Source: Candidatus Omnitrophota bacterium
GTDB lineage: Bacteria; Omnitrophota; Gorgyraeia; Tantalellales; Tantalellaceae
Direction: 5' to 3'
Assembly: GCA_015231405.1 (NCBI GenBank)
Contig: JADGBR010000002.1
Span: 4,642 to 68,641 of the forward strand
Length of the DNA: 64,000 nucleotides
This document shows, piece after piece, positions 19,845 to 62,647 of this stretch. Under the pieces are notes generated by a model. It was given only the letters and a program-made list of their open reading frames with translations. It had not been told where the DNA came from and did no database searches. The stretch's first letter is position 1. Each line of letters begins with the position of its first letter. A program made the translations under genes and the position numbers.

Positions 19845-20662
19845 GCTACGCGGCGTTCCACGCCCCCTGAGCCTTTTTTAACCGCTACGACGAGAACGGA
19901 TCCCGCCCCGGCCCATGGCATATATCTCTCCAGAAATCCACCCACCCGAACAGCGGCGGAATTTTCCCTGTCGTAGACTTTTTTATCTCTGAAAAATCCG
20001 GAGAATTCCACAAGGCTGAAAATATGGTCGACAGGCATGGTCCTTTCGATATGGAAACCGCCGTTCGTTATCGCTCTTTCCAGCTCCCCAACATTGAAAT
20101 ATCTCTGGTAGTAATAGTTCTTTTCGGGTTTACCCATAAGACGCCTGAGTGAACGGCTGCGTTTCATAAGGTTGAGCGGAGCCTTGACACCAAGGAACAC
20201 GTTAAAGTACGGCACTGATAAAATAAGCCTCCCGCCGTCCTTTAGGACGCGGTACGCTTCCCGTAACGCCTTATCCGGACCTTCGGCGAAATGTTCGATG
20301 ACCCCGAAGGAAAGGTAGGCGTCGAAAGATCCTGACCCGAAAGGGAGATCCCTTATATCGGCCGTGGACACTTTCTGTGACGGGTCATATTCCCTTATCT
20401 TCCTCATACATTCATCGTCATAGTCGACGCCTGAGATATCATATCCCATTCCCCTCAACTTTATGACCCACGGGCCAAGCCCGCACCCCGCTTCCAGAAC
20501 ACTTCCTCCACGGGGAAGATAGGAAATAACCGTATCCTTGATCTTAATGACCCTGGGATAAGTGAAAATACCCATGATAGTCGCGATGTCTATCTCTTCC
20601 CAGTTTTCCCTCCAGGCTTTTCGTGTGGCTTCATCGGTCCTTACGGCTTTCCCTTGTCTCAT
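19841..20662 (-). CDS. Class I SAM-dependent methyltransferase
   Basis: VLEAGCGLGPWVIKL motif I. 273 aa. Confidence 0.8.
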   Translation of the reverse strand: MRQGKAVRTDEATRKAWRENWEEIDIATIMGIFTYPRVIKIKDTVISYLPRGGSVLEAGCGLGPWVIKLRGMGYDISGVDYDDECMRKIREYDPSQKVSTADIRDLPFGSGSFDAYLSFGVIEHFAEGPDKALREAYRVLKDGGRLILSVPYFNVFLGVKAPLNLMKRSRSLRRLMGKPEKNYYYQRYFNVGELERAITNGGFHIERTMPVDHIFSLVEFSGFFRDKKVYDRENSAAVRVGGFLERYMPWAGAGSVLVVAVKKGSGGVERRVA

Positions 20663-20689: not shown

Positions 20690-21643
20690 TCAACCTTTCT
20701 TTTTCTTGTCGTAAAAATTTTTCTTTAGCCTGTACAGTATCTCCTCATTGAGCTTCCTGTTGGCGGACATGATATCCCCCAAGAGTCCTATCATGATTAT
20801 CATGAAGCCGGTTATAAGACACGCCGACGCTATTATCAAAGATTGTACATGCCCTCCCTGATGGCGGGTGAAGTGTGCCGCAAGGAAACGCGCGACAAGA
20901 AAAAGGCCGGCGAATATGGGGATAAGGCTTAGTTTGACGAAACTTTTCAAAGGCTCGTACATCATATAGATGCGCAGCATCGTTACAACGCTTCTCTTTA
21001 TGTACGAAGGGACGCTTTTTATCAGCCTGGATTCCCTGAGCTTGGCATTTGTGGAGATGTTCACATAGGTTATCGGAAGCTCTTTCAACCCAGCCTGAAT
21101 TATGCTTTCTATCGTATACGTATAATTCGAAAATATATTAAGCCGCATAGCTGCGTCCCTGGAATACGCCCTGAACCCGCTGGTAGTATCCGGAATGTCC
21201 GTTTTCGAGAACTTTCTCACGACTGAGCTGCCTATTCCCTGGAGCCATTTCTTGACCGGCGAAAAGTGGCTGATAGAAGCGATATCACGGCACCCGATCA
21301 CCATTTCAGCCTTACCTTCAAGGATCGGCTCTATCAGTTTGGGGATATCCGCGCCGCTATACTGGTTATCGCCGTCGATATTCACTATTATGTCCGCTCC
21401 AGCTTCCACGGAGCTATCCAGGCCCCGCCTGAAAGCCTCAGCCAGACCCCTATTAACCGGGAGATCGACGATATGCCTGACGCCCAGCCCCCTCGCTATC
21501 TCGACTGTAGCGTCGGTCGAGCCGTCGTTGACCACCAGAACCTCGATCTCGTCGATGCCCGCGATCTTTTTCGGAAGGTCTCTAAAAGCCTCCGGCAAAG
21601 TTTTTTCCTCGTTGAAACAGGGTATCTGAATGATGAGCTTCAT
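20690..21643 (-). CDS. Polyprenol-phosphate glycosyltransferase (GT2, ArnC/GtrB/DPM1-like with C-terminal TM helices)
   Basis: MKLIIQIPCFNEEKTL...VVNDGSTDAT...NIDGDNQY, plus two C-terminal TM helices. Confidence 0.75.
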   Translation of the reverse strand: MKLIIQIPCFNEEKTLPEAFRDLPKKIAGIDEIEVLVVNDGSTDATVEIARGLGVRHIVDLPVNRGLAEAFRRGLDSSVEAGADIIVNIDGDNQYSGADIPKLIEPILEGKAEMVIGCRDIASISHFSPVKKWLQGIGSSVVRKFSKTDIPDTTSGFRAYSRDAAMRLNIFSNYTYTIESIIQAGLKELPITYVNISTNAKLRESRLIKSVPSYIKRSVVTMLRIYMMYEPLKSFVKLSLIPIFAGLFLVARFLAAHFTRHQGGHVQSLIIASACLITGFMIIMIGLLGDIMSANRKLNEEILYRLKKNFYDKKKKG

Positions 21644-21676: not shown

Positions 21677-22438
21677 TTATTTCCGTATTGCAACACAGTC
21701 TGACTCTTTACGCAATATCCATATATACGTCGGCACCAGCCAATACAGATGCTCCGAGACGAACACGGCCGCCCTCTGGCCCAATGAGCCTGGGCTGACC
21801 ATATCCGTAGCCCGGAATGTCACAGGATCGTTTATAACTTTAACGGTATAATCTGACACTTTAAAATCCGATACCATCTTTTTCAATCCCGGGAGGCAGA
21901 AAGACCTCACGTCATAAGCCCCGCCCCCGGCCAAACCCAGATATGCGTCGGCGAGAGGCTTGGGAAAATATGAAAGGAACGGAAGTTTGTAATGCGGTTC
22001 TATCGGGATAAGCCGGTTCATAGCCGTGAAATAACACACCCCGCCGGGTTTGAGGACACGCCATATTTCTTTCACAAGCTTTCCCGGGTCATCGACATGT
22101 TCATATATCCCGGCGCATACCGCGGCGTCAAAAGATCCGTCCGGGAAATCCATACGCTCGCCGCTCTGGACCGAGAAACGGATCCCCGGCCATTTAGCGC
22201 GCGCGTAATTGACCGCCTCCTCGTCAGGGTCAATGCCGGTCACATCAAAACCGTCCTTTAGCGACGCCGAGATGATCCCAAGCGAACAGCCTATGTCAAG
22301 AAGCGACCCGGAGCGTTTCCCGGAGTCATGTAACACGGCCTTGATCTTTTCGGCCTTCCTCGTCCTGTCGGCTATGTACGCCTCTTCCGCTTTCTTGTTA
22401 TGTTCCTGAAATAGTTTTTTCCTGAATTCCTTTTTCAT
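21677..22438 (-). CDS. Class I SAM-dependent methyltransferase
   Basis: LLDIGCSLGIISASL motif I, FDAAVCAGIYEHV and VLKPGGVCYF motifs. Confidence 0.8.
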   Translation of the reverse strand: MKKEFRKKLFQEHNKKAEEAYIADRTRKAEKIKAVLHDSGKRSGSLLDIGCSLGIISASLKDGFDVTGIDPDEEAVNYARAKWPGIRFSVQSGERMDFPDGSFDAAVCAGIYEHVDDPGKLVKEIWRVLKPGGVCYFTAMNRLIPIEPHYKLPFLSYFPKPLADAYLGLAGGGAYDVRSFCLPGLKKMVSDFKVSDYTVKVINDPVTFRATDMVSPGSLGQRAAVFVSEHLYWLVPTYIWILRKESDCVAIRK

Positions 22439-22451
22439 ATTATTCCGGGCC

Positions 22452-23267
22452 TCACCCGGAAAAAGAGTTCAACGCCTCGTCCAATTTGGAATACTCGGCG
22501 TCTATTTTGTTTTTTTTGATATATACGGTCACCCTGGACATCCACACAAGTGTCGCGGCGAAAGAGTAAAACACGATCCAAGGAATGAATATCTCGGATC
22601 TGACGAAAAAATTAAGTATCGAGACCGGCAGCATAAAATAAATGATCGCAGGGAAAGTGCATACATAGTGAAGACCGCTGAAACATTTTTTCAGCGGGGA
22701 AGCCGCGTTCTTTTCGTCCCTTGAGCTTTCCATCTTTTTAAAGACCACCGGCTTAGCAGGTTCAAGCAGTCTTCCCCTGAGCCTCTTATACAGGACGCTG
22801 TAGTGGACATCCAGAAAAGCGTCGATCAAATGCGCCGAATACCCGGCGGCTATAGACAATAAAAAGACCCAGAAAATACCGTACCGGAGATATAGCCCAA
22901 AGCCTATCGACATAAAGAACCACGGATGCACGATATAATGGGCCATGTAATCGAAAAATCTTCCGGTCGCGCCCATCTGATCCCTGTATCTGGCTATCTC
23001 ACCGTCGACCATGTCCAGAGTATACCAGAATTGCAGACCTATCGCTCCTATCAGGAAAGCGGGTTTGGTGGCGAAAAGAAATACCCCGCATATGACGAAA
23101 CCCGTGACGATGAACGTTAAAGTAACGCCGTTAGCGCTTATAGGCGTATGGAGAAGAAGCCATGTGATCCTGACGGATACCTTCCTCAGGATATTCATCA
23201 TGTACCAGTCATCGGTATTACGCCGCGGATGCTGGCATCTTATCTCTAATTCCCTTATTGTTTCCAT
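22452..23267 (-). CDS. CDP-alcohol phosphatidyltransferase-family membrane protein
   Basis: DMVDGEIARYRDQMGATGRFFDYMAH fits the DG-x2-AR-x8-G-x3-D signature (last Asp replaced by His). Multi-TM. Confidence 0.6.
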   Translation of the reverse strand: METIRELEIRCQHPRRNTDDWYMMNILRKVSVRITWLLLHTPISANGVTLTFIVTGFVICGVFLFATKPAFLIGAIGLQFWYTLDMVDGEIARYRDQMGATGRFFDYMAHYIVHPWFFMSIGFGLYLRYGIFWVFLLSIAAGYSAHLIDAFLDVHYSVLYKRLRGRLLEPAKPVVFKKMESSRDEKNAASPLKKCFSGLHYVCTFPAIIYFMLPVSILNFFVRSEIFIPWIVFYSFAATLVWMSRVTVYIKKNKIDAEYSKLDEALNSFSG

Positions 23268-23268
23268 C

Positions 23269-24066
23269 CTATCCTTCCAAGGACCGGTCTTTGAAATACC
23301 TGTCCAGAACGCCCTTCTCTTTCCAGTCCATGTACCTGGAATAATCCCTTTCCGAATCGAACTCGAGCCACCCTCCGTTCACCGGGACGGCCTTGACCCT
23401 GTGCCCGAGGTCTATTGCTCTCTGCAGCATATCCGTCATATATCCGTTCTGAAAGTTCTTGGACCTCAGCCATTTTTTATCCCAATATTCCTTTTTATCG
23501 GTGTCGTATATGTTCGAGATAATGTCTATCCCCTTTTTGGAAAATTTTAAAAGCCCTATATACTGGCCTTTCACCCTGGATATATCCGGCCTGGGCTCGC
23601 CTATATCCACGATCTCATTTTTTCCGTTAAAGACCATCGACTCCGTCTCAGAGAGAAAATCCTCACCGAACCGGTCCCTGAAATACCCCGCGCCGTTCAA
23701 GTCGACGACGACGCTTATGTCGTCCTTTGACTCCAAAAGAGCCCTGAGCACTTTGCGTTCATAGACAATATCCCCGTAAGATACCATCACGGCGCCGTCC
23801 CATAAAGGCCTGGTGCAAAAGAACGATTCCACCATGTTCGTCGCGGCAAAACGCTCGTTAATAACCTTTTTGGCCCCGGGGCAATCGAGATTATCGGCCA
23901 TATGCCCGGCGACAACTATTATGTCTTCGATCCCCTCGGCACGCATCGCGCCAAGCTGCCTGTCTATGATCCTTTTTCCAAGGAACTCAAGCATGCACTT
24001 ATGCTTATCACGAGTGAGAGATCCCATCCTGGACCCTGTTCCCGCCGCCAAAATCACCGCTTTCAT
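23269..24066 (-). CDS. Sugar-phosphate or phospho-amide nucleotidyltransferase (Cj1416/LicC-like cytidylyltransferase)
   Basis: MKAVILAAGTGSRMG is the NTP_transferase N-terminal motif. 265 aa. Confidence 0.7.
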   Translation of the reverse strand: MKAVILAAGTGSRMGSLTRDKHKCMLEFLGKRIIDRQLGAMRAEGIEDIIVVAGHMADNLDCPGAKKVINERFAATNMVESFFCTRPLWDGAVMVSYGDIVYERKVLRALLESKDDISVVVDLNGAGYFRDRFGEDFLSETESMVFNGKNEIVDIGEPRPDISRVKGQYIGLLKFSKKGIDIISNIYDTDKKEYWDKKWLRSKNFQNGYMTDMLQRAIDLGHRVKAVPVNGGWLEFDSERDYSRYMDWKEKGVLDRYFKDRSLEG

Positions 24067-24719
24067 ATTTTCCTCCAGAATCCTGTCCTGTTCCTGAACG
24101 CCGTGACCAAGGCGTCGTTCACATAACTGTCAGGGCTTTTCCTCTCAGGGTGCCACTGCACCCCCAGTATCGGATACTTCGTATGACAGAGAGCTTCCAC
24201 GCCGGACGTGATCGAAACAGCGAGAACCTTGAGTTCGGGTGACACCTTCCCGAAAAATACGCCCTGCCTGTGGAATGAATTGACGTTGATCCTTGATCTC
24301 CCCAGGAGCGACTTGAACTCGACATCCGTCACATTGACCTCGTGGCTATCCGTAACATGGGTCTTCAAGTCCAGCCCTTTAAGAGTGAGAGTTTCGGGCA
24401 AGCCTCCCTTAAAGTAGTAATTGATGAACTGCATCCCCCGGCATATCCCCAGGACGGGAAGTGAGCGTTTTACCGCAAGGTCCAGCAGCTTTTTCTCCTG
24501 CTGGTCCCTCACCGGTTCGGACCCTATATCGTTCCCGCCGGAAAGGATCATCCCTCTTATGTCAAAATAGCGCAAATACGACTCTACATCCGCTACCGCG
24601 TTCGATACGGGCAATAACGTTATACCCTTACCCCCGAAGTAGCTGACATAGTCGTTATAAAGAAAATCCGCCGGACTGTCGTATTTCCGCTCTATGCCGC
24701 AAGAAATGGCCAAAAGCAT
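24063..24719 (-). CDS. Class I glutamine-amidotransferase-like hydrolase (PuuD/Cj1417-like)
   Basis: GICRGMQ (nucleophile Cys) and GVQWHPE (His/Glu) motifs. 218 aa. Confidence 0.7.
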   Translation of the reverse strand: MLLAISCGIERKYDSPADFLYNDYVSYFGGKGITLLPVSNAVADVESYLRYFDIRGMILSGGNDIGSEPVRDQQEKKLLDLAVKRSLPVLGICRGMQFINYYFKGGLPETLTLKGLDLKTHVTDSHEVNVTDVEFKSLLGRSRINVNSFHRQGVFFGKVSPELKVLAVSITSGVEALCHTKYPILGVQWHPERKSPDSYVNDALVTAFRNRTGFWRKI

Positions 24720-24722
24720 GTT

Positions 24723-27128
24723 TTATCCCTCCAGGGGTTCCAGCACCTGTTTCGCCCCGTCTATGACCACGAATCTGGAACTCACCAGCCTGTCAAATAT
24801 TGTCGGACCGCATCCGATAGCGGCCGGTATCCCGAACTCAGCGCACCTTATAGCCATATGCGAGGCCACGCCCCCGTATTTCGTCACTATCCCCATGGGT
24901 TTCCTCGAAAATATCCAGTCATAACCGGGATCGGCGTTCTCAAGGAAAATGATGTATTCTCTCATATCCTCTATTTTCATGAACCCAGCTACATCATACA
25001 CAAGAACCGGCCCCTTAGCAATTTTTTCCGTGATAAAATTAGGCCTTGCCTTATAGAAACGCACGATATCGATATCCTTCTCGCTTATTATGACCGGCGG
25101 AAGAATAAGATGATCCGACCACACCTTCTCTTTTTTGTGCCTTTCAAGCGACTGCCTTATTACCCTCCCGGCGTGATCCGAGTCCGAATACTCAGGGTTC
25201 CTGAATTTGAGCAGAGTATTAAGGTCCACCTGGCTGAGATCTTCCCTCGTAAACCCCAGTTTGCCGCCTGCGAGAGCCAGAAACTCTATGGCTTCGCTCA
25301 GCGTTCGCGTGAACTCGAGTTTCGCGTCTTCCCTGAGCTTGATAGCCTTCTCTATGAAAGTCAGGAGCGTCTTCGCGCTGCCGTTGATCTTATCGCGTTC
25401 CATAACGCGGTTAATTGCCGATATCTCCGCGGCGGGAAACGCGAATTTTTCACGGCTGGCCACGCCCTCCTGCCGCGCGTCGCCCTTTTTACTGAAAAAA
25501 CCTTTTTTCATATCGCGATACCTGAGTGCCGTTATGTCGTACGTACCCGGCCTTAAGTGCCCGTAAGAGGAGAAAAAGTCACAAAGGCTCAGTTTACCGC
25601 TCTGCATCCGGGCGAGATCGGCGCTGAAATCCGACGCCACGGTTTGAATGGAATTCAGAAAACCGTGATAGGAATCGCCCGATATTACCCCTTCGTCCCT
25701 CAAACTCATCAATATGCTTTTTCCGATGAACGCCAGTCTGGCCAGGCGCGCGAATGGAAGTATCCCGAATTTTTTACAGTTCTGGAGCAGGTTGTACGCT
25801 ATGTAGAACAATGTCCACGGCGAATCGTCATCGCGGTTCCGAAATGATAATAACCTGGCCTTTCGCTGTGTGAGATGCCGGACAAGCTCCATATCCCTGG
25901 CAAAAAGATATTCCGCGTCGTCCAGGATACCGTTCGTGAGTTTCCGGAGGGCCCTAGTAAAGATCTCTATCTCCCCTCGTTTGAATCCTGATTTTTTCAG
26001 TTCCAGAAGCTGCCGTTCAAGGGAAAAGTTATAACATGACCAGACTATCTCGAACTCTATCTTGTCCTGCCTTTCGGGGTAGCGCTCAAGCTTATCCAAG
26101 TAATGGTCGACTATCTTTCCGGCAAGTTCGTCCGGGACATCTACAGGCAGCAAAGAATTAAAACTCAGCCGTGTATCAATATAAGGCCGTTTGCCGAAGG
26201 ATATCATGAGATCGCCCGGATAAACGTCCCGGTATCCAAGGGAAGACCTTGCCTCGTGCCAGACAGAATCCGTTATTAGAAAACTGTACAGGGAGTAATC
26301 CAGAGTATTCGGCCTGTTACCTATCATCTCAGCCGGGTTCCAGTCCGGCATATCGCCAAAAATAGTGCGGCTTCCCCCCAGGTGCGGTATCGGCCTCGAG
26401 AACCGCGAGTATTTTGCCTTCATGCTCCCTATGAGTTCCCCGATGTGGCCTTCGTCGGGGAAAGCCAGCCCCCTGTTCGCGGCAAGAGGCCTCACCTGGA
26501 AAATGACCACCTTCCCGGCGGAAGTGATAGCGAACTCTATATCTAGCGAGCGTTTGGGAAAATGGCCCTCTATCTCCCTGACCGAGTCCAATAAAGCCGC
26601 CCATTCACCCGCTTCACGGCTTTTAGCTCCGCGGAATATGCACACCAGATCCCCCGATATCCCTCCGGTAACGGTATCCGTCTTACCCGTGATACCATCG
26701 TAATTAATGATGTAATACGGGGCGTTCGTCCCAAGGCCCCTGGTAAAAACGACTCCGCTTATACGCACCGAACGCGTCTGGGTCTGGACAATGACCTGGT
26801 CATCGAAAAGCGGGGCTTTTTTTTCGGCATATGACCCTATAACTCGCTCTATCGAGCTTATCAGGGCTGCGGGGCTAGCGCTATCCACGCCTATCTCGCT
26901 GTGAAAATAACCGGCCTGCGAGGATCTCTCCGTGTCTTCGTTCCGCGATGAGCTTCTGACAGCTACAGGCTTGGGCGAGAATCTGCCCATGATCTTTTTT
27001 ATTACGTCGGGTCTGGCGGACTCCCATTCTTTAACCGTGAATACATAGATATCCTCGACATACCCTTTCTTGATTGTTTCCTTAAGATACGAGAGAACAT
27101 CCGCTTTTGACCTCAGCCTATTTTTCAT
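24723..27128 (-). CDS. PEP-utilising / PEP-synthase-like phosphotransferase (candidate amide kinase, Cj1418-like)
   Basis: N-terminal VAVRSSSRNEDTERSSQAGYFHS matches the PPDK/PpsA ATP-grasp motif. C-terminal GGVASHMAIRCAEFGIPAAIGCG is the phosphohistidine mobile domain. 801 aa. Confidence 0.65.
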   Translation of the reverse strand: MKNRLRSKADVLSYLKETIKKGYVEDIYVFTVKEWESARPDVIKKIMGRFSPKPVAVRSSSRNEDTERSSQAGYFHSEIGVDSASPAALISSIERVIGSYAEKKAPLFDDQVIVQTQTRSVRISGVVFTRGLGTNAPYYIINYDGITGKTDTVTGGISGDLVCIFRGAKSREAGEWAALLDSVREIEGHFPKRSLDIEFAITSAGKVVIFQVRPLAANRGLAFPDEGHIGELIGSMKAKYSRFSRPIPHLGGSRTIFGDMPDWNPAEMIGNRPNTLDYSLYSFLITDSVWHEARSSLGYRDVYPGDLMISFGKRPYIDTRLSFNSLLPVDVPDELAGKIVDHYLDKLERYPERQDKIEFEIVWSCYNFSLERQLLELKKSGFKRGEIEIFTRALRKLTNGILDDAEYLFARDMELVRHLTQRKARLLSFRNRDDDSPWTLFYIAYNLLQNCKKFGILPFARLARLAFIGKSILMSLRDEGVISGDSYHGFLNSIQTVASDFSADLARMQSGKLSLCDFFSSYGHLRPGTYDITALRYRDMKKGFFSKKGDARQEGVASREKFAFPAAEISAINRVMERDKINGSAKTLLTFIEKAIKLREDAKLEFTRTLSEAIEFLALAGGKLGFTREDLSQVDLNTLLKFRNPEYSDSDHAGRVIRQSLERHKKEKVWSDHLILPPVIISEKDIDIVRFYKARPNFITEKIAKGPVLVYDVAGFMKIEDMREYIIFLENADPGYDWIFSRKPMGIVTKYGGVASHMAIRCAEFGIPAAIGCGPTIFDRLVSSRFVVIDGAKQVLEPLEG

Positions 27129-28395
27129 GTTTCCCCGATTGCGGCGTCATTTTTTCACCCTCCGCCGCCATGCTCAGATATCCTTTTTCCCGAAGCGCGT
27201 TCAATACCGTCCTGGCGACAAGTTCATTCCCGAGCTTACTATAATGCCCGCCGTAGACATTGTCATCTGAGTACAACTCGTCCAGGTCTCCCCTTCCCAA
27301 AAGTATTTCCGTCATGTCCACGGTCAGGACCTTATTCGATATATCCCCGATAACCTTCTCGTAATAGTTCCCTCTCTCCCTTATAAAAAGCACGTCATCT
27401 TTTTGCGGCATAAAAAGAAACACAGGCTGTATTCCTTTCTCCTCCGCCGTTCGAGAGAACTTTGATACGAGCGCAGAAAAGATCCCTCTAGAGTATCTTT
27501 CGCCGAATAACCTGACCCTGAGGTCCCTGTTTATTTCCATTATCTTCATCATGGGATATTCATCTATACGGGAGTTCGTTACGCCAAAAGCCCGGTAAAG
27601 TTTGGACATGAGAAGCGCCGTGATTATCGGGATATTACGCCCGGGCTTACGCAGCACGGAATAAAGGTACGGGAACCTCAGCATTTCGTCCCTGAACTTT
27701 GTCCGATAAAAGAAATCATTGCTCCTTATCCCGTCCAGGAATTCTTCGTACCTCCCTAGTTTCGAGGCATCGTCGATGATGTTATCGATCCTTACCAGAA
27801 GGCCATCCCTGAGGTCAAATCTGGGTTTAAACCCGAAGGTATTACCGAATTCGTTATAATGTTTCCAAACGCATAATATCCTCACGATAGTGGACGGGAC
27901 TACCCCCATAATGACTATCTCGGGATCAATGCGCCCAAGCTCCCTCTCCATGCGGATATAAGCTTGATCAAGTCCGTAGTTCCCAACCCCGAAATTAACG
28001 ACCCCCGCCCCTGAGAAGGACGCGAGGAACCACGGCCAGGTCTCGTCATCGTTCGTCTGGCGGCAAAATGTAAAAGAATCCCCGAAACAGGCTATCTTCA
28101 AGGGAAGGGATCCAAGCCCCGGATGGCGGCGCGCCCCGCGATCGTCCATATGGTAACTGGTAGAACCGTGTTTCCCCTTTTCCGGGTGAGACGTGTTAGG
28201 CTTTCTTATCCACCCCAGTTCGGGGTCGTAACCGTGTTCCAGGAACTTCTTTAACCCTTCCGGGTCTAAAACCGGACGCTCATCGCGCGGGGTGATGAGC
28301 CACTGAAAATCCCGCCTTAAACGCCCGACTGTAAAGGCTACCGCCAGCTCGAAAAGGAAAAGTACTGCCAGGATAACTATCGCCGCGATCGGCAT
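27118..28395 (-). CDS. Membrane-anchored SGNH/GDSL hydrolase-family protein
   Basis: N-terminal TM helix and block I CFGDSFTF. 425 aa. Confidence 0.45.
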   Translation of the reverse strand: MPIAAIVILAVLFLFELAVAFTVGRLRRDFQWLITPRDERPVLDPEGLKKFLEHGYDPELGWIRKPNTSHPEKGKHGSTSYHMDDRGARRHPGLGSLPLKIACFGDSFTFCRQTNDDETWPWFLASFSGAGVVNFGVGNYGLDQAYIRMERELGRIDPEIVIMGVVPSTIVRILCVWKHYNEFGNTFGFKPRFDLRDGLLVRIDNIIDDASKLGRYEEFLDGIRSNDFFYRTKFRDEMLRFPYLYSVLRKPGRNIPIITALLMSKLYRAFGVTNSRIDEYPMMKIMEINRDLRVRLFGERYSRGIFSALVSKFSRTAEEKGIQPVFLFMPQKDDVLFIRERGNYYEKVIGDISNKVLTVDMTEILLGRGDLDELYSDDNVYGGHYSKLGNELVARTVLNALREKGYLSMAAEGEKMTPQSGKHEK

Positions 28396-28396
28396 A

Positions 28397-28918
28397 TCAG
28401 CGCCTCAATAAGGGTTTGATGCTCTTTATTATTTTTCCGCCTTCCCTGTACAGGTCATCCAATCCGCGGTCATTCTTTATGGTGAGATCCGGACCTAAGG
28501 GAGGCGGGAACGCTATATCCACTCCGACAACGTTCTTTATTTCGCCGTTAATAGCCTTTTTGTATATGCCTTTAGAGTCCCTCTGCACCAGGACGCCAAG
28601 ATCGGACTCGATATATACCTCGTAATAATCCCTGATGTTCTCCCTCATCCATCTCTGGCTTTCGTGGAACAGGGACAATACGGCGAAGATCACGTTTATT
28701 CCAGACGAATCAAGGTATTTACAGAGCCTTGTTATGCGGCCGGCGTTCTTCTTCCTGTCCTCGATCGTATGGCCGAGATCGTCGCCCATTATCTCCCTGA
28801 GTATATCCCCGTCCAAAAAAACCAGATTAGGGTATCCCGGTTTAAGTTCCTCATATACGCGTTTACCAAGCGCCGTCTTCCCGGAACCCGACATCCCGAT
28901 TATCCATAAGACCATCAA
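28397..28918 (-). CDS. Adenylylsulfate-kinase-fold kinase (CysC paralog; candidate Cj1415-like cytidine diphosphoramidate kinase)
   Basis: P-loop GMSGSGKT, LDGDILRE and RDSKGIYKKAINGEI are APS kinase motifs. 173 aa. Confidence 0.75.
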   Translation of the reverse strand: MMVLWIIGMSGSGKTALGKRVYEELKPGYPNLVFLDGDILREIMGDDLGHTIEDRKKNAGRITRLCKYLDSSGINVIFAVLSLFHESQRWMRENIRDYYEVYIESDLGVLVQRDSKGIYKKAINGEIKNVVGVDIAFPPPLGPDLTIKNDRGLDDLYREGGKIIKSIKPLLRR

Positions 28919-28928
28919 TCACTCCCCT

Positions 28929-29729
28929 TTATTCCATACCCGGTTTATGCGCTATCAATACATAAATATTGCAAAATTGTTCCGGAAATAACCTGATAAG
29001 CGACCTCTGGATCAGGGAGGCGAAAGGCGAAAGCTTGTAGCCTTCCTTTCTCCCAAGATTCTCGTTAAACTCCTTATGCGCTTTATCCCTAAAGAACCTG
29101 AACTTGTAAAACAAAGGCATATTCTCGACCGGATATACTTCTTCGACCCAAAAACCGGCCTTAGTGAACAGTTCGACGAACTCCGCTCGTTTTAAATTTC
29201 GTTTGTGAAATTTATCCGGCGCGGCTTTAACCCCTTTTTTCCTGGCCGATCGCTCGTAAAGCCGGTCAGTTAGCCATGTCTCGACGTTATCCGCGCGAAA
29301 AGACGCGCATACTTTCCCTCCCGGTGATACGATGCGAAAGGTCTCACGTATGGCCACATCCAGGCCATTCTCGAGATTATGATACAAACCGAACGCCAAG
29401 ACATAGCCGAAATACCCGTCGGGGTACCTGAGGCCGGTGATATCCCCAACCTCTGCTTTGAGCTTAGGATCATGCTCTTTAAGCTTTCTGATCACTCCCT
29501 CGATAAAATCTATACCCGTTATATCGTACCCTTTATCGGCAAAATACCTGAGAACCCTTCCCGCGCCGCATCCCGCCTCCAATATCCTTTGGCCCGGGGA
29601 CCCGACCGTCATTTTAGCGTATTTCAGGGGGTATACATCAGGGTTATCCATAGGCTGGTCCACGGGTATATCATCCCATCTTTTAAACCAGTATTCGTTA
29701 TTGTCCTTCCAACGGTAAGTTATTCTCAT
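28929..29729 (-). CDS. Class I SAM-dependent methyltransferase
   Basis: ILEAGCGAGRVLRYF motif I. 266 aa. Confidence 0.75.
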   Translation of the reverse strand: MRITYRWKDNNEYWFKRWDDIPVDQPMDNPDVYPLKYAKMTVGSPGQRILEAGCGAGRVLRYFADKGYDITGIDFIEGVIRKLKEHDPKLKAEVGDITGLRYPDGYFGYVLAFGLYHNLENGLDVAIRETFRIVSPGGKVCASFRADNVETWLTDRLYERSARKKGVKAAPDKFHKRNLKRAEFVELFTKAGFWVEEVYPVENMPLFYKFRFFRDKAHKEFNENLGRKEGYKLSPFASLIQRSLIRLFPEQFCNIYVLIAHKPGME

Positions 29730-29813: not shown

Positions 29814-32003
29814 TTATAACGCTATCACTACCCGTTTACCCGCCTTGAGGTATTCCAGTGCGCTGTTTACGTGTAGGTTCAAAGCTTCAACGAATTCATT
29901 TTTCACCGCCAGAGGGACCTCGGCGACGATATTACTCTTTTCTCCCCTGTCCTTTTTGAGATCGTACATCTCAAAGACCTCATTTCTCCGCTCGAAGTTC
30001 GCGAAAGAAGAGCAGTCGAATTCCGTCCTGTAGATGAAAGAATAATTCCTGTCGCGAAGAGATATCGAGCACCTTTTGACGTAGATATCCTCGCTTATCG
30101 CGAATCGCCTTCCGGCTAAGGCCGCCTCATCCAAAAGGCTTTTACCCGAAAAACGCTGGCCTTTCGGGTCTATTCCGGCAAGGTCCAGGACAGTCGGGGC
30201 GATATCGATATTTGCCTCAACGGGTGAATCTTCGAGCCTCGGAACGAGCCCTAAACCCGCCGGGAATTTGACCGACATCCCCACGTTAACGAACTCGCCG
30301 TACAGGTCGAACTTCCCTATCACGCCGTGTTCAGCGAAATTCGTGCCGTGATCACCCATGATGATCACCAGAGAATCGTCATATTTATCCATATCCTTGA
30401 GGTAAGCGACGAATCTGTCGATGTGATGCATGCATAGGTCCAGTTCGGCTTTGTACAGATCGTTAAAATACAGCAATTGTTCATTTGTAAAGTCCAGCGC
30501 TCCCGGGACCTTCCTGTTCGCCTTCACGTCGCGAACTACGTCTTCAGTGGAGATCCTGTTAAGGACCCATTCCCGGTCCCGCGGAGGATAATAAGGCCAA
30601 TGAGCGTCCAGAATATGCAGGTAATAGAACTGGCGGCCTCTCGCCCCTGATTTTCTGTCCGCTTCCATTGCCCACGAGAAGGCCCTCTCCACGGTAGACT
30701 CGTTAAGTTCCTTATCGGTGATCCTGTAGTGATACCTGTCAAAGCCCCGGGAATAACCGTAATTCGGGACAGTCCTCGGCCCGGTCGCGTAGCCGTTAGT
30801 GATATATCCGTTCTCTTTCAGGATCTCCGGCAACAGCCTTATCTCTGAGCCTATCCCTTTCTGCGTCCTCGGATGGTTCACCCCGTGGTAAGATGGAAAA
30901 AGACCGGAGAGGAACGCGCCATAAGTGGGTAATGTCCATGGGCCCTGAGTCCAGGCGTTAGAAAATACGACGCTGTCCTTTATCATGCCGGAAAGGGCAC
31001 CGAACCCGCGCTCTTTCATCCCCTCGGCCGAAAGGAAATGGTCGCTCCTCAAACTGTCAACGACCAGAACGTAAATATTCATGTCTTTTCCGGGAGCACA
31101 CCGGGCACCGCCGAAAAGAGGTAAACTCACATAACACTTCGCGCCTTGGGCCCCTTCCGCCGAAAATCTTATCGATTTGAATTTGTCGTGTTCATGTCCG
31201 TTCCCGAGCGGCACAAGGCAGTCATTCCATACCCTGTCCCTGAAATACCGGTTGGGGTTGATGTCCTTGATGAAAAGATCTTCCTCGCCGCCGGATCCGC
31301 GCACCCCTTTTACCGTGAGCCTCGGAGCCTTAGGGGAAATCTCTTTTACCCCTACTCCCAAAGGCAGGACTTCATTATCGCCGACCGCCACATCGTGGCT
31401 CTGGCCGTTCCTGACCGCGAAACAGTTCCTCAGTTCATCACCTATCTGTACCTTCCCCGTCCCGCTCCTCGGCACTCCGGACGGAAGAGCGTCGTGTACC
31501 GACCTGTCCAGGCCTATGGCTCTGGCCACCGTCATGTCAAAATGCTTTCTTTTAGACAAATAGGCTTTATAAGCGAATAACATGACGGCATTGGCCGCGA
31601 TAAAAGCGGCCAACGCAGGGGCGGTTCCCACTCCCAAAAGACATAAACCCGATACCACGGCGACACAGAGCTGAAAACAGGCATCCCTCACGCAAACTCC
31701 GTAATTCGTCCTATAGATCATGAACCAATATCCCGAAAGAAAGTAGGCCAGATAAAAGAACGAAGCCACGCCAAGAGCGAAAGAAAGGATGACCCGGATA
31801 TCGGCAAGGAACACCGCTCCGCCGCCCAACAAATCCCGAAAGAATATATAATTCCCGGCCACACCAACTGAACATATGATTCCCAGACGCATATCCTTCC
31901 CCGCCATGCGTATAAGCTCAAGCCAGAAAATGAGGAAGCGGCCCGCTCGCGTCCATTCCGAGATCTTCAGCTTAAAAATACTGAAATGGTTATCCACTGG
32001 CAC
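29814..32003 (-). CDS. Membrane-anchored sulfatase / alkaline-phosphatase-superfamily protein (LtaS/EptA-like architecture)
   Basis: N-terminal multi-TM region followed by a sulfatase-type domain (NIYVLVVDSLRSDHF...GPWTLPTYGAFLSG). The canonical C/S-x-P-x-R motif is not intact. Confidence 0.55.
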   Translation of the reverse strand: MPVDNHFSIFKLKISEWTRAGRFLIFWLELIRMAGKDMRLGIICSVGVAGNYIFFRDLLGGGAVFLADIRVILSFALGVASFFYLAYFLSGYWFMIYRTNYGVCVRDACFQLCVAVVSGLCLLGVGTAPALAAFIAANAVMLFAYKAYLSKRKHFDMTVARAIGLDRSVHDALPSGVPRSGTGKVQIGDELRNCFAVRNGQSHDVAVGDNEVLPLGVGVKEISPKAPRLTVKGVRGSGGEEDLFIKDINPNRYFRDRVWNDCLVPLGNGHEHDKFKSIRFSAEGAQGAKCYVSLPLFGGARCAPGKDMNIYVLVVDSLRSDHFLSAEGMKERGFGALSGMIKDSVVFSNAWTQGPWTLPTYGAFLSGLFPSYHGVNHPRTQKGIGSEIRLLPEILKENGYITNGYATGPRTVPNYGYSRGFDRYHYRITDKELNESTVERAFSWAMEADRKSGARGRQFYYLHILDAHWPYYPPRDREWVLNRISTEDVVRDVKANRKVPGALDFTNEQLLYFNDLYKAELDLCMHHIDRFVAYLKDMDKYDDSLVIIMGDHGTNFAEHGVIGKFDLYGEFVNVGMSVKFPAGLGLVPRLEDSPVEANIDIAPTVLDLAGIDPKGQRFSGKSLLDEAALAGRRFAISEDIYVKRCSISLRDRNYSFIYRTEFDCSSFANFERRNEVFEMYDLKKDRGEKSNIVAEVPLAVKNEFVEALNLHVNSALEYLKAGKRVVIAL

Positions 32004-61561: not shown

Positions 61562-61573
61562 CGCTCCTCGTTG

Positions 61574-61666
61574 CTTTCAGCTATCGGCTTTCAGCTATCA
61601 GCTATCAGCTTTTAATGTAGGCTAAACACAATAAAACTGAAGGCTGAAAGCTGGAGGCTGATAGCT
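61574..61666. repeat. Heptamer palindrome, family E copy 1: (CTTTCAG/CTATCAG)x5, loop TAATGTAGGCTAAACACAAT, then CTGAAAG-type copies
   Basis: Read directly from the sequence. It lies in the cysN-cysD gap. Confidence 0.8.
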
Positions 61667-62546: not shown

Positions 62547-62549
62547 TTT

Positions 62550-62641: not shown

Positions 62642-62647
62642 AAGAGC

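What the first reader, a model, noticed from the sequence alone, without database searches (positions are those of the whole stretch)
22452..29729. Complete Cj1415-Cj1418-like phosphoramidate (MeOPN-type) biosynthesis gene set inside a non-Campylobacter-looking glycan locus
Four contiguous or near-contiguous genes match the four enzymes of the C. jejuni O-methyl phosphoramidate pathway. That pathway is established knowledge from the Raushel-lab characterisation of Cj1415-Cj1418.

The matches are:
- an 801-aa PEP-synthase/PPDK-like protein with both the N-terminal VAVRSSSRNED nucleotide-binding motif and a C-terminal phosphohistidine domain (GGVASHMAI), resembling the L-glutamine kinase Cj1418;
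- a class-I GATase hydrolase with GICRGMQ and WHPE, resembling the gamma-glutamyl-CDP-amidate hydrolase Cj1417;
- a roughly 260-aa nucleotidyltransferase (MKAVILAAGTGSRMG), resembling the CTP:phosphoglutamine cytidylyltransferase Cj1416;
- a 173-aa APS-kinase-fold kinase with an intact P-loop, resembling the cytidine diphosphoramidate 3-prime kinase Cj1415.

Three class-I SAM methyltransferases flank the set and would fit the O-methylation step.

The novel element is a CDP-alcohol phosphotransferase gene that abuts the nucleotidyltransferase. This enzyme family transfers a substituted phosphate from CDP-X to a hydroxyl and releases CMP. That is exactly the chemistry needed to move phosphoramidate from CDP-amidate onto a sugar. 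So it is a plausible, undescribed alternative to the Campylobacter Cj1421/1422 transferases.
Basis: partly seen in the sequence, partly recalled or inferred. Interest (0 to 1): 0.85.

Follow-up and report, generated by a model that had tools for sequence, protein, structure and literature searches.

The report
Phosphoramidate glycan pathway, new transferase candidate
An uncultured Omnitrophota bacterium carries the four-enzyme pathway that Campylobacter uses to build its rare nitrogen-phosphorus sugar decoration, here joined to an unusual membrane CDP-alcohol phosphotransferase that may attach the group by a route nobody has described.

Summary

The four core genes are the Cj1415-Cj1418 type by curated HMMs, source names and synteny. 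Kinase, GATase and NT are contiguous in 58 of 64 metagenomic loci. I could not obtain the Campylobacter proteins, so no direct comparison was made.

The PT idea is plausible but unproven. The PT belongs to a separate, AF2299-like subfamily in which the fourth signature Asp, the putative catalytic base, is His. It sits beside the glutamine-kinase set in nine loci, in at least four PT lineages, including archaeal ones. In homologous cassettes a phosphonate module takes the place of the phosphoramidate module. Family members occur fused to a Wzx flippase and to a methyltransferase.

Against this, PT accompanies only 2 of 80 randomly sampled glutamine-kinase loci. Most PT loci lack the kinase. The operon also encodes rival transferase candidates: a membrane alkaline-phosphatase-superfamily protein and the SGNH-like protein.

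Verdict: a new variant of a known pathway, with a testable transferase hypothesis.

The parts
28929..29729 (-). Class-I SAM methyltransferase (266 aa). It is the conserved upstream partner of the module and a candidate for the O-methylation step.
   Evidence: Pfam Methyltransf_11/25/23. Orthologues lie directly upstream of the kinase-like gene in L001 (60% identity) and L005 (67%), and upstream of the glutamine kinase in L159.
28397..28918 (-). APS-kinase-fold kinase (173 aa) of the Cj1415 type. Putative cytidine diphosphoramidate 3'-kinase.
   Evidence: PF01583, 115 bits. NF004041/PRK05541 is the best family at 164.5 bits (cut-off 127). TIGR00455 apsK scores 126.9, below its cut-off of 138.7. 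It is only 31% identical to the canonical CysC at 62648-63160, which scores 205 bits on apsK. Where canonical enzymes have ISPY it has LSLF, and the 27 glutamine-kinase-linked kinases share S.F at this site. Orthologues lie next to the glutamine kinase in 22 of 80 loci and are fused to it in P0086 and P0089.
27118..28395 (-). 425-aa membrane-anchored SGNH/GDSL-like protein of unknown role. It is an accessory partner of both the glutamine-kinase set and the PT family.
   Evidence: Weak PF13472 match and a PDB GDSL hit at E=0.004. There is one N-terminal TM helix, followed by RLRR. Orthologues: L006 64%, L007 54%, L002 41%. It is present in 16 of 80 glutamine-kinase loci. Distant homologues directly follow the PT in L021, L039 and L040, which lack the glutamine kinase.
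24723..27128 (-). L-glutamine kinase homologue (801 aa) of the Cj1418 type. It has an ATP-grasp/PPDK_N domain and a phosphohistidine swivel domain.
   Evidence: NF004508, 791.7 bits against a cut-off of 501. PEP synthase scores 45 bits and rifampin phosphotransferase 22 bits. JGI names P0015 (53% identity) and P0098 (40%) 'glutamine kinase'. His757 in GGVASHMAI is invariant across 22 homologues.
24063..24719 (-). Class-I GATase/Peptidase_C26 (218 aa) of the Cj1417 type. Putative gamma-glutamyl-CDP-amidate hydrolase.
   Evidence: PF07722, 100 bits. The best NCBIfam is NF045546 at 81 bits, below the cut-off of 250; PuuD scores 54. It lies directly downstream of the glutamine kinase in 58 of 64 loci. 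The Cys (GICRGMQ) and His-x-Glu (WHPE) motifs are present.
23269..24066 (-). Cytidylyltransferase (265 aa) of the Cj1416 type. Putative CTP:phosphoglutamine cytidylyltransferase.
   Evidence: PF12804/PF00483. JGI names P0237 (58% identity), P0251 and P0255 (44% each) and P0266 (42%) 'L-glutamine-phosphate cytidylyltransferase'. The AlphaFold2 model has pLDDT 95. The nearest solved folds are PntC, inositol-1-phosphate cytidylyltransferase and LicC. It is the third gene of the conserved triad.
22452..23267 (-). CDP-alcohol phosphotransferase (271 aa) of an AF2299-like subfamily in which the fourth signature Asp is His (H110). Candidate phosphoramidate transferase.
   Evidence: PF01066, 32.4 bits against a cut-off of 22. 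The family profile matches AF2299 at E=6e-25, with H110 aligned to D4. The AlphaFold2 model has pLDDT 89, and Foldseek's best PDB hit is AF2299. The motif is D85xxD88GxxAR-x8-G102xxxD106xxxH110. His occupies the D4 position in 84 of 98 motif hits.
21677..22438 (-). Class-I SAM methyltransferase (253 aa) that travels with the PT-GT2 cassette.
   Evidence: Pfam. Orthologues: L007 57%, and L014 51% in a phosphonate context. A methyltransferase follows the PT in L008, L009 and L013. A PT-FkbM methyltransferase fusion exists (P0365).
20690..21643 (-). GT2 polyprenyl-phosphate sugar synthase-like protein (317 aa, two C-terminal TM helices). Part of the conserved cassette downstream of the PT.
   Evidence: PF00535. 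The best NCBIfam hits are AglJ, PpgS, PgfS and ArnC-like, all below their cut-offs. It is 63-69% identical in L006, L007, L013, L014 and L037, always next to the PT.
19841..20662 (-). Third class-I SAM methyltransferase (273 aa).
   Evidence: Pfam Methyltransf_11/25/23. Only weak homologues occur in related loci.
16642..17607 (-). LPG_synthase_TM (MprF-flippase-like) membrane protein. Part of the cassette.
   Evidence: PF03706, 88.6 bits. Orthologues occur in L006, L007, L013 and L014.
29814..32003 (-). 729-aa membrane protein with an N-terminal TM region and an alkaline-phosphatase-superfamily ('Sulfatase') domain. Rival candidate for the phospho-group transferase.
   Evidence: PF00884, 76 bits. 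There are about four or five N-terminal TM segments. Where sulfatases carry C/S-x-P-x-R, it reads T-L-P-T-Y. Orthologue in L007 at 34% identity. Soluble relatives follow the NT in 24 of 80 glutamine-kinase loci.
31990..33489 (-). Wzx-type flippase (499 aa).
   Evidence: PF13440/PF01943. A flippase lies directly upstream of the PT in L011 and L049. A flippase-PT fusion exists (P0467).

Best explanation
The operon encodes a MeOPN-type phosphoramidate donor pathway inside a Wzx-dependent surface-glycan locus that also makes a nonulosonic acid. The host is an Omnitrophota bacterium.

Proposed steps:
1. [quoted passage not shown]
2. The NT joins the product to CMP, giving CDP-L-glutamine.
3. The GATase hydrolyses it to cytidine diphosphoramidate.
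4. The APS-kinase-like enzyme can phosphorylate the 3' position of the ribose.

These four assignments are inferred from homology and from very strong synteny.

The next step is inferred from context only. The translationally coupled membrane PT attacks the beta-phosphorus of the CDP-linked phosphoramidate with a hydroxyl of the lipid-linked glycan repeat unit, at the cytoplasmic face of the membrane. This releases CMP, or 3'-phospho-CMP. One of the adjacent SAM methyltransferases then O-methylates the group, before Wzx flips the unit across the membrane.
For: Donor pathway:
- Curated HMMs and source names support all four assignments.
- Kinase, GATase and NT are contiguous in 58 of 64 loci, and the kinase-like gene is adjacent in 22 of 80.
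- Fusions of the glutamine kinase with cytidylyltransferase-like and APS-kinase domains exist.
- A separate canonical CysN/D/C set in the same window shows that the module kinase is a distinct paralogue.

PT step:
- There is a 1-nt gap between the NT and PT genes.
- NT and PT together hit the two halves of the bifunctional IPCT/DIPPS model NF041135. The closest solved relatives, AF2299 and IPCT-DIPPS, use small soluble CDP-alcohol donors.
- Seven of the eight signature residues and the cytosine-binding N-x-x-T are kept.
- The PT lies beside the glutamine-kinase set in the window, L004/L005, L006, L007, L015, L049, L095 and L097. These fall in at least four separate PT lineages, three of the loci archaeal-type.
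- In L014 the same PT-GT2-methyltransferase-flippase-like cassette follows a PepM-NT/Ppd phosphonate module instead. L011, L059 and L069 are similar. So the PT takes whatever small CMP-activated phospho-group the neighbouring module supplies.
- A Wzx-PT fusion (P0467) and a PT-FkbM methyltransferase fusion (P0365) point to a lipid-linked glycan acceptor and to coupled methylation.
- The archaeal-type PT loci show no APS-kinase-like gene within the flanks. That is consistent with direct use of CDP-amidate.
Against: - PT is present in only 2 of 80 randomly sampled glutamine-kinase loci.
- Only 2 of the 80 PT-family loci from genomes have the glutamine kinase nearby.
- The PT tree is not congruent with the association. 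The window PT is closer to L010's PT (45% identity; ATP-sulfurylase context, no glutamine kinase) than to L007's (38% by BLASTP).
- The window keeps the 3'-kinase. In C. jejuni the proposed donor is the 3'-phosphorylated form (PMC11800397). No CDP-alcohol phosphotransferase is known to accept such a donor.
- The putative catalytic base D4 is His. In a PIP synthase a D4-to-Asn change abolishes activity (PMC4634129).
- Other transferase candidates share the operon: the AP-superfamily 729-aa protein and the 425-aa SGNH-like protein.
- No biochemical data exist, and the organism is uncultured.
- The Cj1415-Cj1418 and Cj1421/Cj1422 sequences could not be compared directly.
Confidence: 0.45

Rival explanations
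1. The four-gene set makes (3'-phospho-)cytidine diphosphoramidate, but the PT has nothing to do with it. On this view the PT belongs to the downstream PT-methyltransferase-GT2-flippase-like-GT-C cassette and uses some other CDP-alcohol or CMP-activated group. The real phosphoramidate transferase is then the membrane alkaline-phosphatase-superfamily protein (29814-32003), the 425-aa SGNH-like protein, or an unrecognised protein.
For: - AP-superfamily 'sulfatase-like' proteins are the commonest partner of glutamine-kinase loci. They occur in 24 of 80, usually right after the NT. They carry Thr where sulfatases have the formylglycine Cys or Ser.
- The window and L007 encode a TM-anchored version.
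- PT-GT2-LPG_synthase_TM cassettes exist without any glutamine kinase (L013, L037), and most PT loci lack a recognisable donor module.
- The 425-aa protein occurs in 16 of 80 glutamine-kinase loci, 14 of them without a PT.
Against: - The window contains no other gene that could make a CDP-alcohol. The only other cytidylyltransferase is the CMP-nonulosonate synthetase.
- NT and PT are translationally coupled.
- The independent recurrence of the PT next to glutamine-kinase sets in bacterial and archaeal-type loci, and next to phosphonate cytidylyltransferase modules, is hard to explain if the PT ignores its neighbours.
- In the 80-locus sample the AP-superfamily partner and the APS-kinase-like gene never co-occur, yet the window has both. 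So the window's arrangement is not the common one either.
Confidence: 0.3
2. The PT does use the CDP-linked phosphoramidate, but its acceptor is a lipid alcohol (diacylglycerol or a polyprenol-type carrier). The product would be a phosphoramidate lipid. This lipid is either an end product, analogous to predicted phosphonolipids, or a carrier. As a carrier it would be flipped by the MprF-like LPG_synthase_TM protein and used outside the membrane by the LtaS/EptA-like 729-aa enzyme to decorate the glycan.
For: - The classical role of the family is lipid head-group transfer.
- The phosphonate literature already predicts phosphonolipids for ppm clusters that combine PntC cytidylyltransferases with CDP-OH transferases: the 'Burkholderiales_CDP-OH' family (PMC8942020).
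- The window and L007 combine a PT, an MprF-flippase-like protein and a TM-anchored AP-superfamily protein with a Thr nucleophile. That architecture matches enzymes which take phospho-head groups from lipids.
Against: - The nearest solved relatives, AF2299 and IPCT-DIPPS, have small hydrophilic donor pockets and soluble acceptors (PMC4634129).
- The Wzx-PT fusion and the frequent flippase-PT adjacency favour a lipid-linked glycan acceptor.
- The topology of the 729-aa protein was not established.
- LPG_synthase_TM also pairs generally with the GT2.
Confidence: 0.15
3. The set does not make a phosphoramidate at all. The 801-aa enzyme phosphorylates a different substrate, the small kinase is an ordinary APS kinase serving glycan sulfation, and NT plus PT form an IPCT/DIPPS-like CDP-alcohol pair.
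For: - Only homology is available.
- The GATase scores far below the NF045546 cut-off (81 against 250).
- NCBI names the NT 'phosphocholine cytidylyltransferase family'.
- Sulfation genes (CysN/D/C) are present in the window.
Against: - The 801-aa protein scores 792 bits on the Cj1418-type equivalog, against 45 bits or less on every other PEP-utiliser model.
- A canonical CysC already exists in the window. The module kinase fails the apsK cut-off, as does the Leptospira kinase that sits in a glutamine-kinase locus.
- The kinase-GATase-NT order is almost invariant.
Confidence: 0.05

Closest known systems
Campylobacter jejuni O-methyl phosphoramidate (MeOPN) pathway, Cj1415-Cj1418 (Raushel laboratory)
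   Same: The same four enzyme types are present, and kinase, GATase and NT lie in the same gene order as Cj1418c, Cj1417c and Cj1416c. That C. jejuni order is my own recollection. SAM methyltransferases are adjacent, and the set is embedded in a surface-polysaccharide locus. PMC11800397 summarises that Cj1415-Cj1418 make CDP-phosphoramidate 3'-phosphate.
   Different: The host is a different phylum (Omnitrophota). The glycan is Wzx-dependent and contains a nonulosonic acid, rather than being a Kps capsule. No Cj1421/Cj1422-type transferase could be identified or tested. The module carries extra conserved genes: a 425-aa SGNH-like protein, a CDP-alcohol phosphotransferase and an AP-superfamily membrane protein. 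The GATase falls below the Cj1417 equivalog cut-off.
AF2299 and IPCT/DIPPS of Archaeoglobus fulgidus (CDP-alcohol phosphotransferases that use soluble CDP-alcohol donors)
   Same: These are the best sequence and fold matches for the PT. The fold is the six-TM type. The NT-next-to-PT arrangement mirrors the IPCT-DIPPS fusion, and both window proteins hit NF041135.
   Different: The PT has no cytosolic N-terminal domain. The D4 catalytic Asp is replaced by His throughout the subfamily. The context is a glycan locus rather than compatible-solute synthesis. The presumed donor carries P-N rather than an alcohol.
Phosphonate tailoring (Pnt) clusters: PepM/Ppd plus a PntC cytidylyltransferase, with LicD-like or CDP-OH transferases (PMC6697681; PMC8942020)
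   Same: The logic is the same: a small phosphorus head group is CMP-activated by a LicC/PntC-like NT and then handed to a transferase. The window NT's nearest solved fold is PntC. PT-subfamily members sit directly after PepM/Ppd modules in L011, L014, L059 and L069.
   Different: The head group here is made from glutamine by a kinase and an amidohydrolase, giving P-N rather than P-C. The literature reads the CDP-OH transferases of phosphonate clusters as lipid-forming enzymes.
Cobalt Borg gene cluster (bioRxiv 10.1101/2024.11.05.622173)
   Same: That preprint reports Cj1416-Cj1418-like genes (308-311) and, nearby, a CDP-alcohol phosphotransferase lacking the cytosolic domain (gene 320). Locus L049, from a Methanosarcinales MAG, shows the same combination.
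   Different: The preprint treats the phosphotransferase as a phospholipid enzyme and does not link it to the phosphoramidate genes. Its glutamine kinase is of the archaeal fused type.
LtaS/EptA/OpgB-type membrane phospho-group transferases (alkaline phosphatase superfamily, PF00884)
   Same: The 729-aa protein has an N-terminal multi-TM region and a PF00884 domain, with Thr in the nucleophile position.
   Different: No family-specific model is matched. The best hits are weak arylsulfatase and choline-sulfatase hits. Neither the topology nor the donor is known.

Membership tests
L-glutamine kinase (Cj1418 type, EC 2.7.3.13) | PEP-utiliser architecture: an N-terminal nucleotide-binding (PPDK_N/ATP-grasp) domain and a C-terminal swivel domain with the catalytic His | tested here: met
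   PF01326 and PF00391 are both above their cut-offs. His757 in GGVASHMAI is invariant in 22 homologues.
L-glutamine kinase (Cj1418 type, EC 2.7.3.13) | Scores above the curated cut-off of the family-specific model and far above sister PEP-utiliser models | tested here: met
   NF004508/PRK05849 scores 791.7 bits against a cut-off of 501. PEP synthase scores 45.4, PigC 41.3 and rifampin phosphotransferase 21.7. That this model represents Cj1418 rests on my recollection. JGI's 'glutamine kinase' names on P0015 (53% identity) and P0098 give independent support.
L-glutamine kinase (Cj1418 type, EC 2.7.3.13) | Direct similarity to Cj1418, and ATP-dependent N-phosphorylation of L-glutamine | not testable with these tools
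   The C. jejuni sequence could not be obtained and no Cj structure is in the PDB. The activity needs an assay.
gamma-Glutamyl-CDP-amidate hydrolase (Cj1417 type) | Class-I GATase fold with the Cys-His-Glu triad | tested here: met
   PF07722 at 100 bits and PF00117 at 56 bits. The GICRGMQ and WHPE motifs are present.
gamma-Glutamyl-CDP-amidate hydrolase (Cj1417 type) | Reaches the NCBIfam equivalog cut-off (NF045546, 250 bits) | tested here: not met
   The score is 81.2 bits. This is the best-scoring family; PuuD scores 53.8. GATases from other glutamine-kinase loci score 108-117 bits, also below the cut-off.
gamma-Glutamyl-CDP-amidate hydrolase (Cj1417 type) | Encoded between the glutamine kinase and the cytidylyltransferase | tested here: met
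   The three genes are contiguous in that order in 58 of 64 metagenomic loci and in L001-L007.
CTP:phosphoglutamine cytidylyltransferase (Cj1416 type) | LicC/PntC-like small-molecule cytidylyltransferase fold with the G-x-G-(T/S)-R loop | tested here: met
   PF12804 at 54 bits. The model has pLDDT 95 and matches PntC (E=5e-17), IPCT and LicC.
CTP:phosphoglutamine cytidylyltransferase (Cj1416 type) | Groups with enzymes assigned to this function rather than with choline or phosphonate enzymes | tested here: inconclusive
   JGI names the closest named relatives (58%, 44% and 42% identity) L-glutamine-phosphate cytidylyltransferase. At about 40% identity the hits also include 'phosphocholine cytidylyltransferase family', 'choline kinase' and PepM-fusion names. 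NCBIfam has no specific model. Context is what discriminates.
Cytidine diphosphoramidate kinase (Cj1415 type) | APS-kinase fold with an intact P-loop, but distinct from true APS kinase | tested here: met
   PF01583 at 115 bits. NF004041 is the best family at 164.5 bits (cut-off 127), and apsK TIGR00455 scores 126.9, below 138.7. The window's canonical CysC scores 205 bits on apsK and is 31% identical. The ISPY motif is replaced.
Cytidine diphosphoramidate kinase (Cj1415 type) | Genomic linkage to the glutamine kinase | tested here: met
   It is adjacent in L001-L003 and L005-L007 and in 22 of 80 metagenomic loci. It is fused in P0086 and P0089.
CDP-alcohol phosphotransferase (PF01066) | Pfam score above the gathering cut-off and the six-TM fold | tested here: met
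   32.4 bits against a cut-off of 22. The profile matches AF2299 at E=6e-25. Foldseek matches AF2299 at E=2e-6 with TM-score 0.57.
CDP-alcohol phosphotransferase (PF01066) | All eight 'absolutely conserved' signature residues, D1xxD2GxxAR...GxxxD3xxxD4 (PMC4634129) | tested here: not met
   Seven of the eight are present. D4 is His110, in at least 90% of the subfamily and in 84 of 98 motif hits.
CDP-alcohol phosphotransferase (PF01066) | Cytosine-binding (P)(D/N)xx(T/S) motif at the start of TM1 | tested here: met
   A45-N46-x-x-T49 aligns with P-N-Q-I-T of AF2299.
MeOPN transferases Cj1421/Cj1422 | Sequence similarity to Cj1421/Cj1422 | not testable with these tools
   No sequence, model or structure of these proteins was reachable. 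No NCBIfam or Pfam family of that name matched any unassigned protein of the window or of related loci.
Formylglycine-dependent sulfatase | C/S-x-P-x-R signature at the nucleophile position | tested here: not met
   The 729-aa protein reads W-T-L-P-T-Y-G-A-F-L-S-G, and soluble relatives read Y-T-F-A-A-L. The alignment to the canonical signature was made by eye against the established motif.

The most novel reading that the evidence does not exclude
The D4-to-His CDP-alcohol phosphotransferases, about 650 clusters at 50% identity, are a general family of head-group transferases. On this reading they decorate Wzx-dependent, lipid-linked glycans with small CMP-activated phosphorus groups supplied by interchangeable neighbouring modules: P-N from the glutamine-kinase pathway and P-C from PepM pathways. 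The window's enzyme would then be the first CDP-alcohol phosphotransferase shown to use a phosphoramidate donor. It would also be a second route to (O-methyl) phosphoramidate glycans, independent of Cj1421/Cj1422. That would imply such decorations are spread through Omnitrophota and archaeal (Borg-type) elements.
Probability: 0.35. Interest if true: 0.8.

Novelty: new variant of a known kind. Interest (0 to 1): 0.6.

Why it matters
Reviews still describe MeOPN and its glutamine kinase as specific to Campylobacter (PMC6429109, PMC9561416). How the phosphoramidate is moved onto sugars has not been shown biochemically even in C. jejuni.

This locus and its relatives show that the donor pathway is widespread: more than 4,400 protein clusters, in Omnitrophota, Leptospira, DPANN archaea and Methanosarcinales. 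It is coupled to several different candidate transferases. One of them is a compact membrane enzyme of a well-understood fold that can be tested directly with a known substrate.

If confirmed, this would add P-N donors to the chemistry of CDP-alcohol phosphotransferases. It would assign a role to the His variant of the catalytic base. It would also link phosphoramidate and phosphonate decoration of cell surfaces through a shared transferase.

Tried and rejected
- Raushel laboratory papers. I tried to read PMC5938747, PMC5938751, PMC5629633 and PMC6643271. None is held.
- Cj1415-Cj1418 sequences. I looked in the PDB by sequence and found no Campylobacter entries. The AlphaFold database was not installed. 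I spent the single genome scan on the PT family, so no Campylobacter locus was fetched.
- Source names for neighbours. I looked them up for neighbours of JGI contigs and found none recorded. The locus of the JGI-named 'glutamine kinase' P0098 came back without DNA.
- Cj1421/Cj1422 equivalents. I asked whether the 622-aa no-Pfam protein (34526-36394) or the 588/655-aa proteins of L003 and L002 could be the equivalent. They are not homologous to each other. Two of them weakly hit a BFO_1060-type glycosyltransferase model. I rejected them as shared transferase candidates.
- Sulfotransferase-fold proteins. I searched the window for proteins like those that accompany the kinase in L002, L003, L096 and L131, and found none.
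- The small kinase as an ordinary CysC. I rejected this because a canonical CysN/D/C set lies at 59750-63160.
- Context of the PT subfamily in cultured Agromyces and Aquisphaera. I abandoned this because ORF calls in those high-GC loci were ambiguous.
- Rfam found nothing in the window.

Full report
**What is there**

Window 10-47 kb is one long minus-strand operon-like array. The stated interval 22452-29729 holds seven intact, tightly packed ORFs:
- methyltransferase, 28929-29729
- APS-kinase-like protein, 28397-28918
- an 801-aa PEP-utiliser, 24723-27128
- a class-I GATase, 24063-24719
- a nucleotidyltransferase (NT), 23269-24066
- a CDP-alcohol phosphotransferase (PT), 22452-23267

The GATase stop overlaps the NT start, and one base separates the NT stop from the PT start. 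Pfam confirms each domain. The 801-aa protein is 100% identical to a protein of a Candidatus Omnitrophica MAG.

**Surroundings**

Upstream lie:
- NeuB, a NeuC-like epimerase and a CMP-nonulosonate synthetase
- WbuX with HisH/HisF-like amidotransferase genes
- two AsnB-like genes, methyltransferases and a radical-SAM/SPASM enzyme
- a Wzx-type flippase
- a 729-aa membrane protein with an alkaline-phosphatase-superfamily ('Sulfatase') domain

Downstream of the PT lie a methyltransferase, a GT2 resembling polyprenyl-phosphate sugar synthases, a third methyltransferase and a GT4. After these come an LPG_synthase_TM protein, an RtcB homologue and a GT-C-like membrane protein. The module therefore sits in a Wzx-dependent surface-glycan locus that makes a nonulosonic acid. 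A canonical CysN/CysD/CysC set lies at 59750-63160.

**Are the four genes the Cj1415-Cj1418 type?**

- 801-aa protein. It scores 792 bits on NCBIfam NF004508/PRK05849 (cut-off 501). It scores 45 bits or less on PEP synthase, PigC and rifampin phosphotransferase models. JGI names homologues of 53% and 40% identity 'glutamine kinase'.
- GATase. Its best family is NF045546, gamma-glutamyl-CDP-amidate hydrolase. The score is 81 bits against a cut-off of 250. GATases from other glutamine-kinase loci behave the same way, at 108-117 bits.
- NT. Its closest named relatives are 'L-glutamine-phosphate cytidylyltransferase' at 58%, 44% and 42% identity. One of them (P0266) lies in the same locus as a JGI-named glutamine kinase, with a GATase between the two. 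Its model (pLDDT 95) is closest to PntC, inositol-1-phosphate cytidylyltransferase and LicC. These are all cytidylyltransferases for small phospho-compounds. At about 40% identity this family merges with LicC/PntC-like enzymes. Context does.
- Small kinase. It best-matches NF004041 (164.5 bits; cut-off 127) and fails the apsK equivalog cut-off (126.9 against 138.7). The window's other APS kinase, next to CysN/D, scores 205 bits on apsK and is only 31% identical. The kinase of the Leptospira glutamine-kinase locus shows the same pattern as the module kinase. The canonical ISPY motif is replaced in the 27 linked kinases examined.

I could not obtain the Campylobacter sequences, so direct comparison remains undone.

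**Synteny**

Homologues of the 801-aa protein are numerous: 4,498 clusters with E ≤ 1e-10 among the 8,000 candidates that were scored. They occur in Omnitrophota, Leptospira and DPANN archaea. Many archaeal forms are fused to a PF01467 cytidylyltransferase-like domain, and some to an APS-kinase domain.

In six looked-up loci (L001-L007) the kinase-like gene, glutamine kinase, GATase and NT are orthologous to the window's. Identities are 54-73%, 45-63%, 31-52% and 37-61% respectively.

In 80 metagenomic loci sampled with a family profile, 68 have the GATase and 67 the NT. In 58 of the 64 loci with both, the order kinase-GATase-NT is contiguous. The APS-kinase-like gene is nearby in 22. This is strong evidence for one conserved pathway.

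Reviews still call the pathway Campylobacter-specific (PMC6429109; PMC9561416). A 2024 preprint noted it in a Borg.

**The phosphotransferase**

The PT belongs to a distinct subfamily. A word-indexed search found 110 members, and an exhaustive profile search found 649 clusters at E ≤ 1e-30.

Its profile matches AF2299 at E=6e-25 and then IPCT-DIPPS. The model (pLDDT 89) has the same fold.

Seven of the eight signature residues and the cytosine-binding N-x-x-T are kept. The fourth Asp is His110. That Asp is the putative catalytic base, and changing it to Asn abolishes PIP synthase activity (PMC4634129). His occupies this position in at least 90% of the subfamily and in 84 of 98 motif hits. The hits span Omnitrophota, Planctomycetota, Agromyces, Patescibacteria and archaea.

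NT and PT together hit the two halves of the bifunctional IPCT/DIPPS model. The gene pair therefore looks like a split version of an enzyme in which the NT makes the CDP-linked donor that the PT consumes.

**Evidence linking the PT to the phosphoramidate genes**

- The close relatives of the window (L004/L005, L006, L007; kinase identity 55-65%) all have the PT directly after the NT. In L004 the array ends there, followed by convergent ClpP and trigger-factor genes.
- The PT also lies near glutamine-kinase sets in L015 and in three archaeal-type loci (L049, a Methanosarcinales MAG; L095; L097). No APS-kinase-like gene is detectable in the flanks of these three archaeal-type loci.
- On a PT tree these cases fall in at least four separate places.
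- In L014 the same cassette (PT, a GT2 63% identical to the window's, a methyltransferase 51% identical, LPG_synthase_TM) follows a PepM-NT fusion and a phosphonopyruvate decarboxylase instead of the glutamine-kinase set. L011, L059 and L069 also place the PT after phosphonate modules. Phosphonates are CMP-activated by PntC-type enzymes (PMC6697681). So the PT appears to take whatever small CMP-linked phosphorus group its neighbours make.
- Family members occur fused to a Wzx-like flippase (P0467) and to an FkbM methyltransferase (P0365). Both keep the His. This points to a lipid-linked glycan acceptor and to coupled methylation.

**Evidence against**

- Only 2 of the 80 sampled glutamine-kinase loci have a PT. 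Only 2 of 80 PT loci from genomes have the kinase.
- The window PT is closer to a PT in an ATP-sulfurylase context (45% identity, L010) than to L007's (38%).
- The commonest partner of the triad is an alkaline-phosphatase-superfamily protein. It occurs in 24 of 80 loci and is usually a soluble protein of about 380 aa directly after the NT. It carries Thr where sulfatases have the formylglycine residue. The window has a TM-anchored relative (729 aa; T-L-P-T-Y in place of C-x-P-x-R).
- The 425-aa SGNH-like protein is another recurrent partner (16 of 80). It also follows the PT in three loci that lack the kinase.
- In the sample the APS-kinase-like gene and the AP-superfamily gene never co-occur (22 and 24 loci, overlap 0). 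Sulfotransferase-fold proteins accompany the kinase in L002, L003, L096 and L131. This suggests two donor flavours: a PAPS-like 3'-phosphorylated donor with sulfotransferase-fold transferases, and plain CDP-amidate with AP-superfamily transferases.
- The window combines the 3'-kinase with the AP-superfamily protein and the PT. It has no sulfotransferase-like gene. The consumer of a 3'-phosphorylated donor in this organism is therefore unexplained.

**Mechanism I consider most likely (confidence 0.45)**

Glutamine is N-phosphorylated, cytidylylated and deamidated to cytidine diphosphoramidate, which may then be 3'-phosphorylated. These steps are inferred from homology and synteny.

The PT then transfers the phosphoramidate to a hydroxyl of the lipid-linked repeat unit at the cytoplasmic membrane face and releases CMP. 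An adjacent methyltransferase O-methylates the group before Wzx flipping. These steps are inferred from context only.

Rival explanations:
- The PT is unrelated, and the AP-superfamily or SGNH-like protein is the transferase (0.3).
- The PT makes a phosphoramidate lipid. This could be an end product, as predicted for 'CDP-OH' phosphonolipid clusters (PMC8942020). Or it could be a carrier for an LtaS/EptA-like transfer outside the membrane (0.15).
- No phosphoramidate is made at all (0.05).

**Novelty and verdict**

The donor pathway is known chemistry, and database annotation already recognises it outside Campylobacter. Its breadth and its variable partners are hardly described in the literature.

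I found no paper in the held library that contains both 'phosphoramidate' and 'CDP-alcohol phosphatidyltransferase'. The Borg preprint lists both gene types side by side without connecting them.

I rate this a new variant of a known kind, carrying a concrete and testable transferase hypothesis. Interest is 0.6.

Noticed in passing
window 59750-63160 (-): A canonical sulfate-activation set lies about 30 kb from the module. It comprises a CysN-like protein (603 aa, with a partial APS-kinase tail), a CysD-like protein (293 aa) and a true CysC (170 aa; apsK 205 bits). I found no sulfotransferase-like gene in the window.
   Followed up: partly
window 15201-16799 (-); L007 20409-21863: An RtcB RNA-ligase homologue sits inside the glycan operon, between the LPG_synthase_TM gene and a GT-C-like gene. 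It has the same placement in L007 (47% identity). It has no obvious role in glycan synthesis.
   Followed up: no
loci L092-L171 (metagenomic glutamine-kinase loci); L002, L003, L096, L131: Among 80 loci, the APS-kinase-like gene (22) and the soluble alkaline-phosphatase-superfamily 'sulfatase-like' gene (24) never co-occur. Sulfotransferase-fold proteins accompany the kinase. This suggests two donor/transferase flavours of the phosphoramidate pathway.
   Followed up: partly
L049 9788-12691 (-); proteins P0052-P0119, P0086, P0089: Archaeal and DPANN glutamine kinases are fused N-terminally to a PF01467 cytidylyltransferase-like domain, and some also to an APS-kinase domain. Yet L049 and the P0098 locus still keep a separate Cj1416-type NT. 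The role of the fused domain is unclear.
   Followed up: partly
proteins P0467, P0365, P0410: The PT subfamily shows fusions: a Wzx-like flippase with PT (808 aa), PT with an FkbM methyltransferase (534 aa), and a tandem PT-PT (598 aa). I confirmed His at the D4 position in the first two.
   Followed up: partly
loci L057, L065, L066, L068, L070, L073, L074: The D4-to-His PT subfamily also occurs in cultured bacteria: Agromyces species and Aquisphaera insulae. These could serve as experimental hosts. I did not resolve their gene contexts.
   Followed up: no
window 17601-19844 (-): The GT4 glycosyltransferase carries a C-terminal extension of about 350 aa with a P-loop (SGAGKTT). The L007 homologue has a faint ScmC match. 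Its function is unknown.
   Followed up: no
window 10348-10737 (-): A 129-aa ORF lies in a low-GC (0.44) gap of the operon. By eye it looks PilZ-like (RKHPR ... NLSLGG). I did not test this.
   Followed up: no
L001 13883-15306; L003 8728-10004; L049 6813-8289; about 11 metagenomic loci: A pair of genes recurs beside glutamine-kinase sets that lack the 425-aa protein. One is a formyltransferase-N-like protein of about 225-250 aa. The other is an uncharacterised protein of about 200-260 aa. This may be yet another accessory or transferase module.
   Followed up: partly
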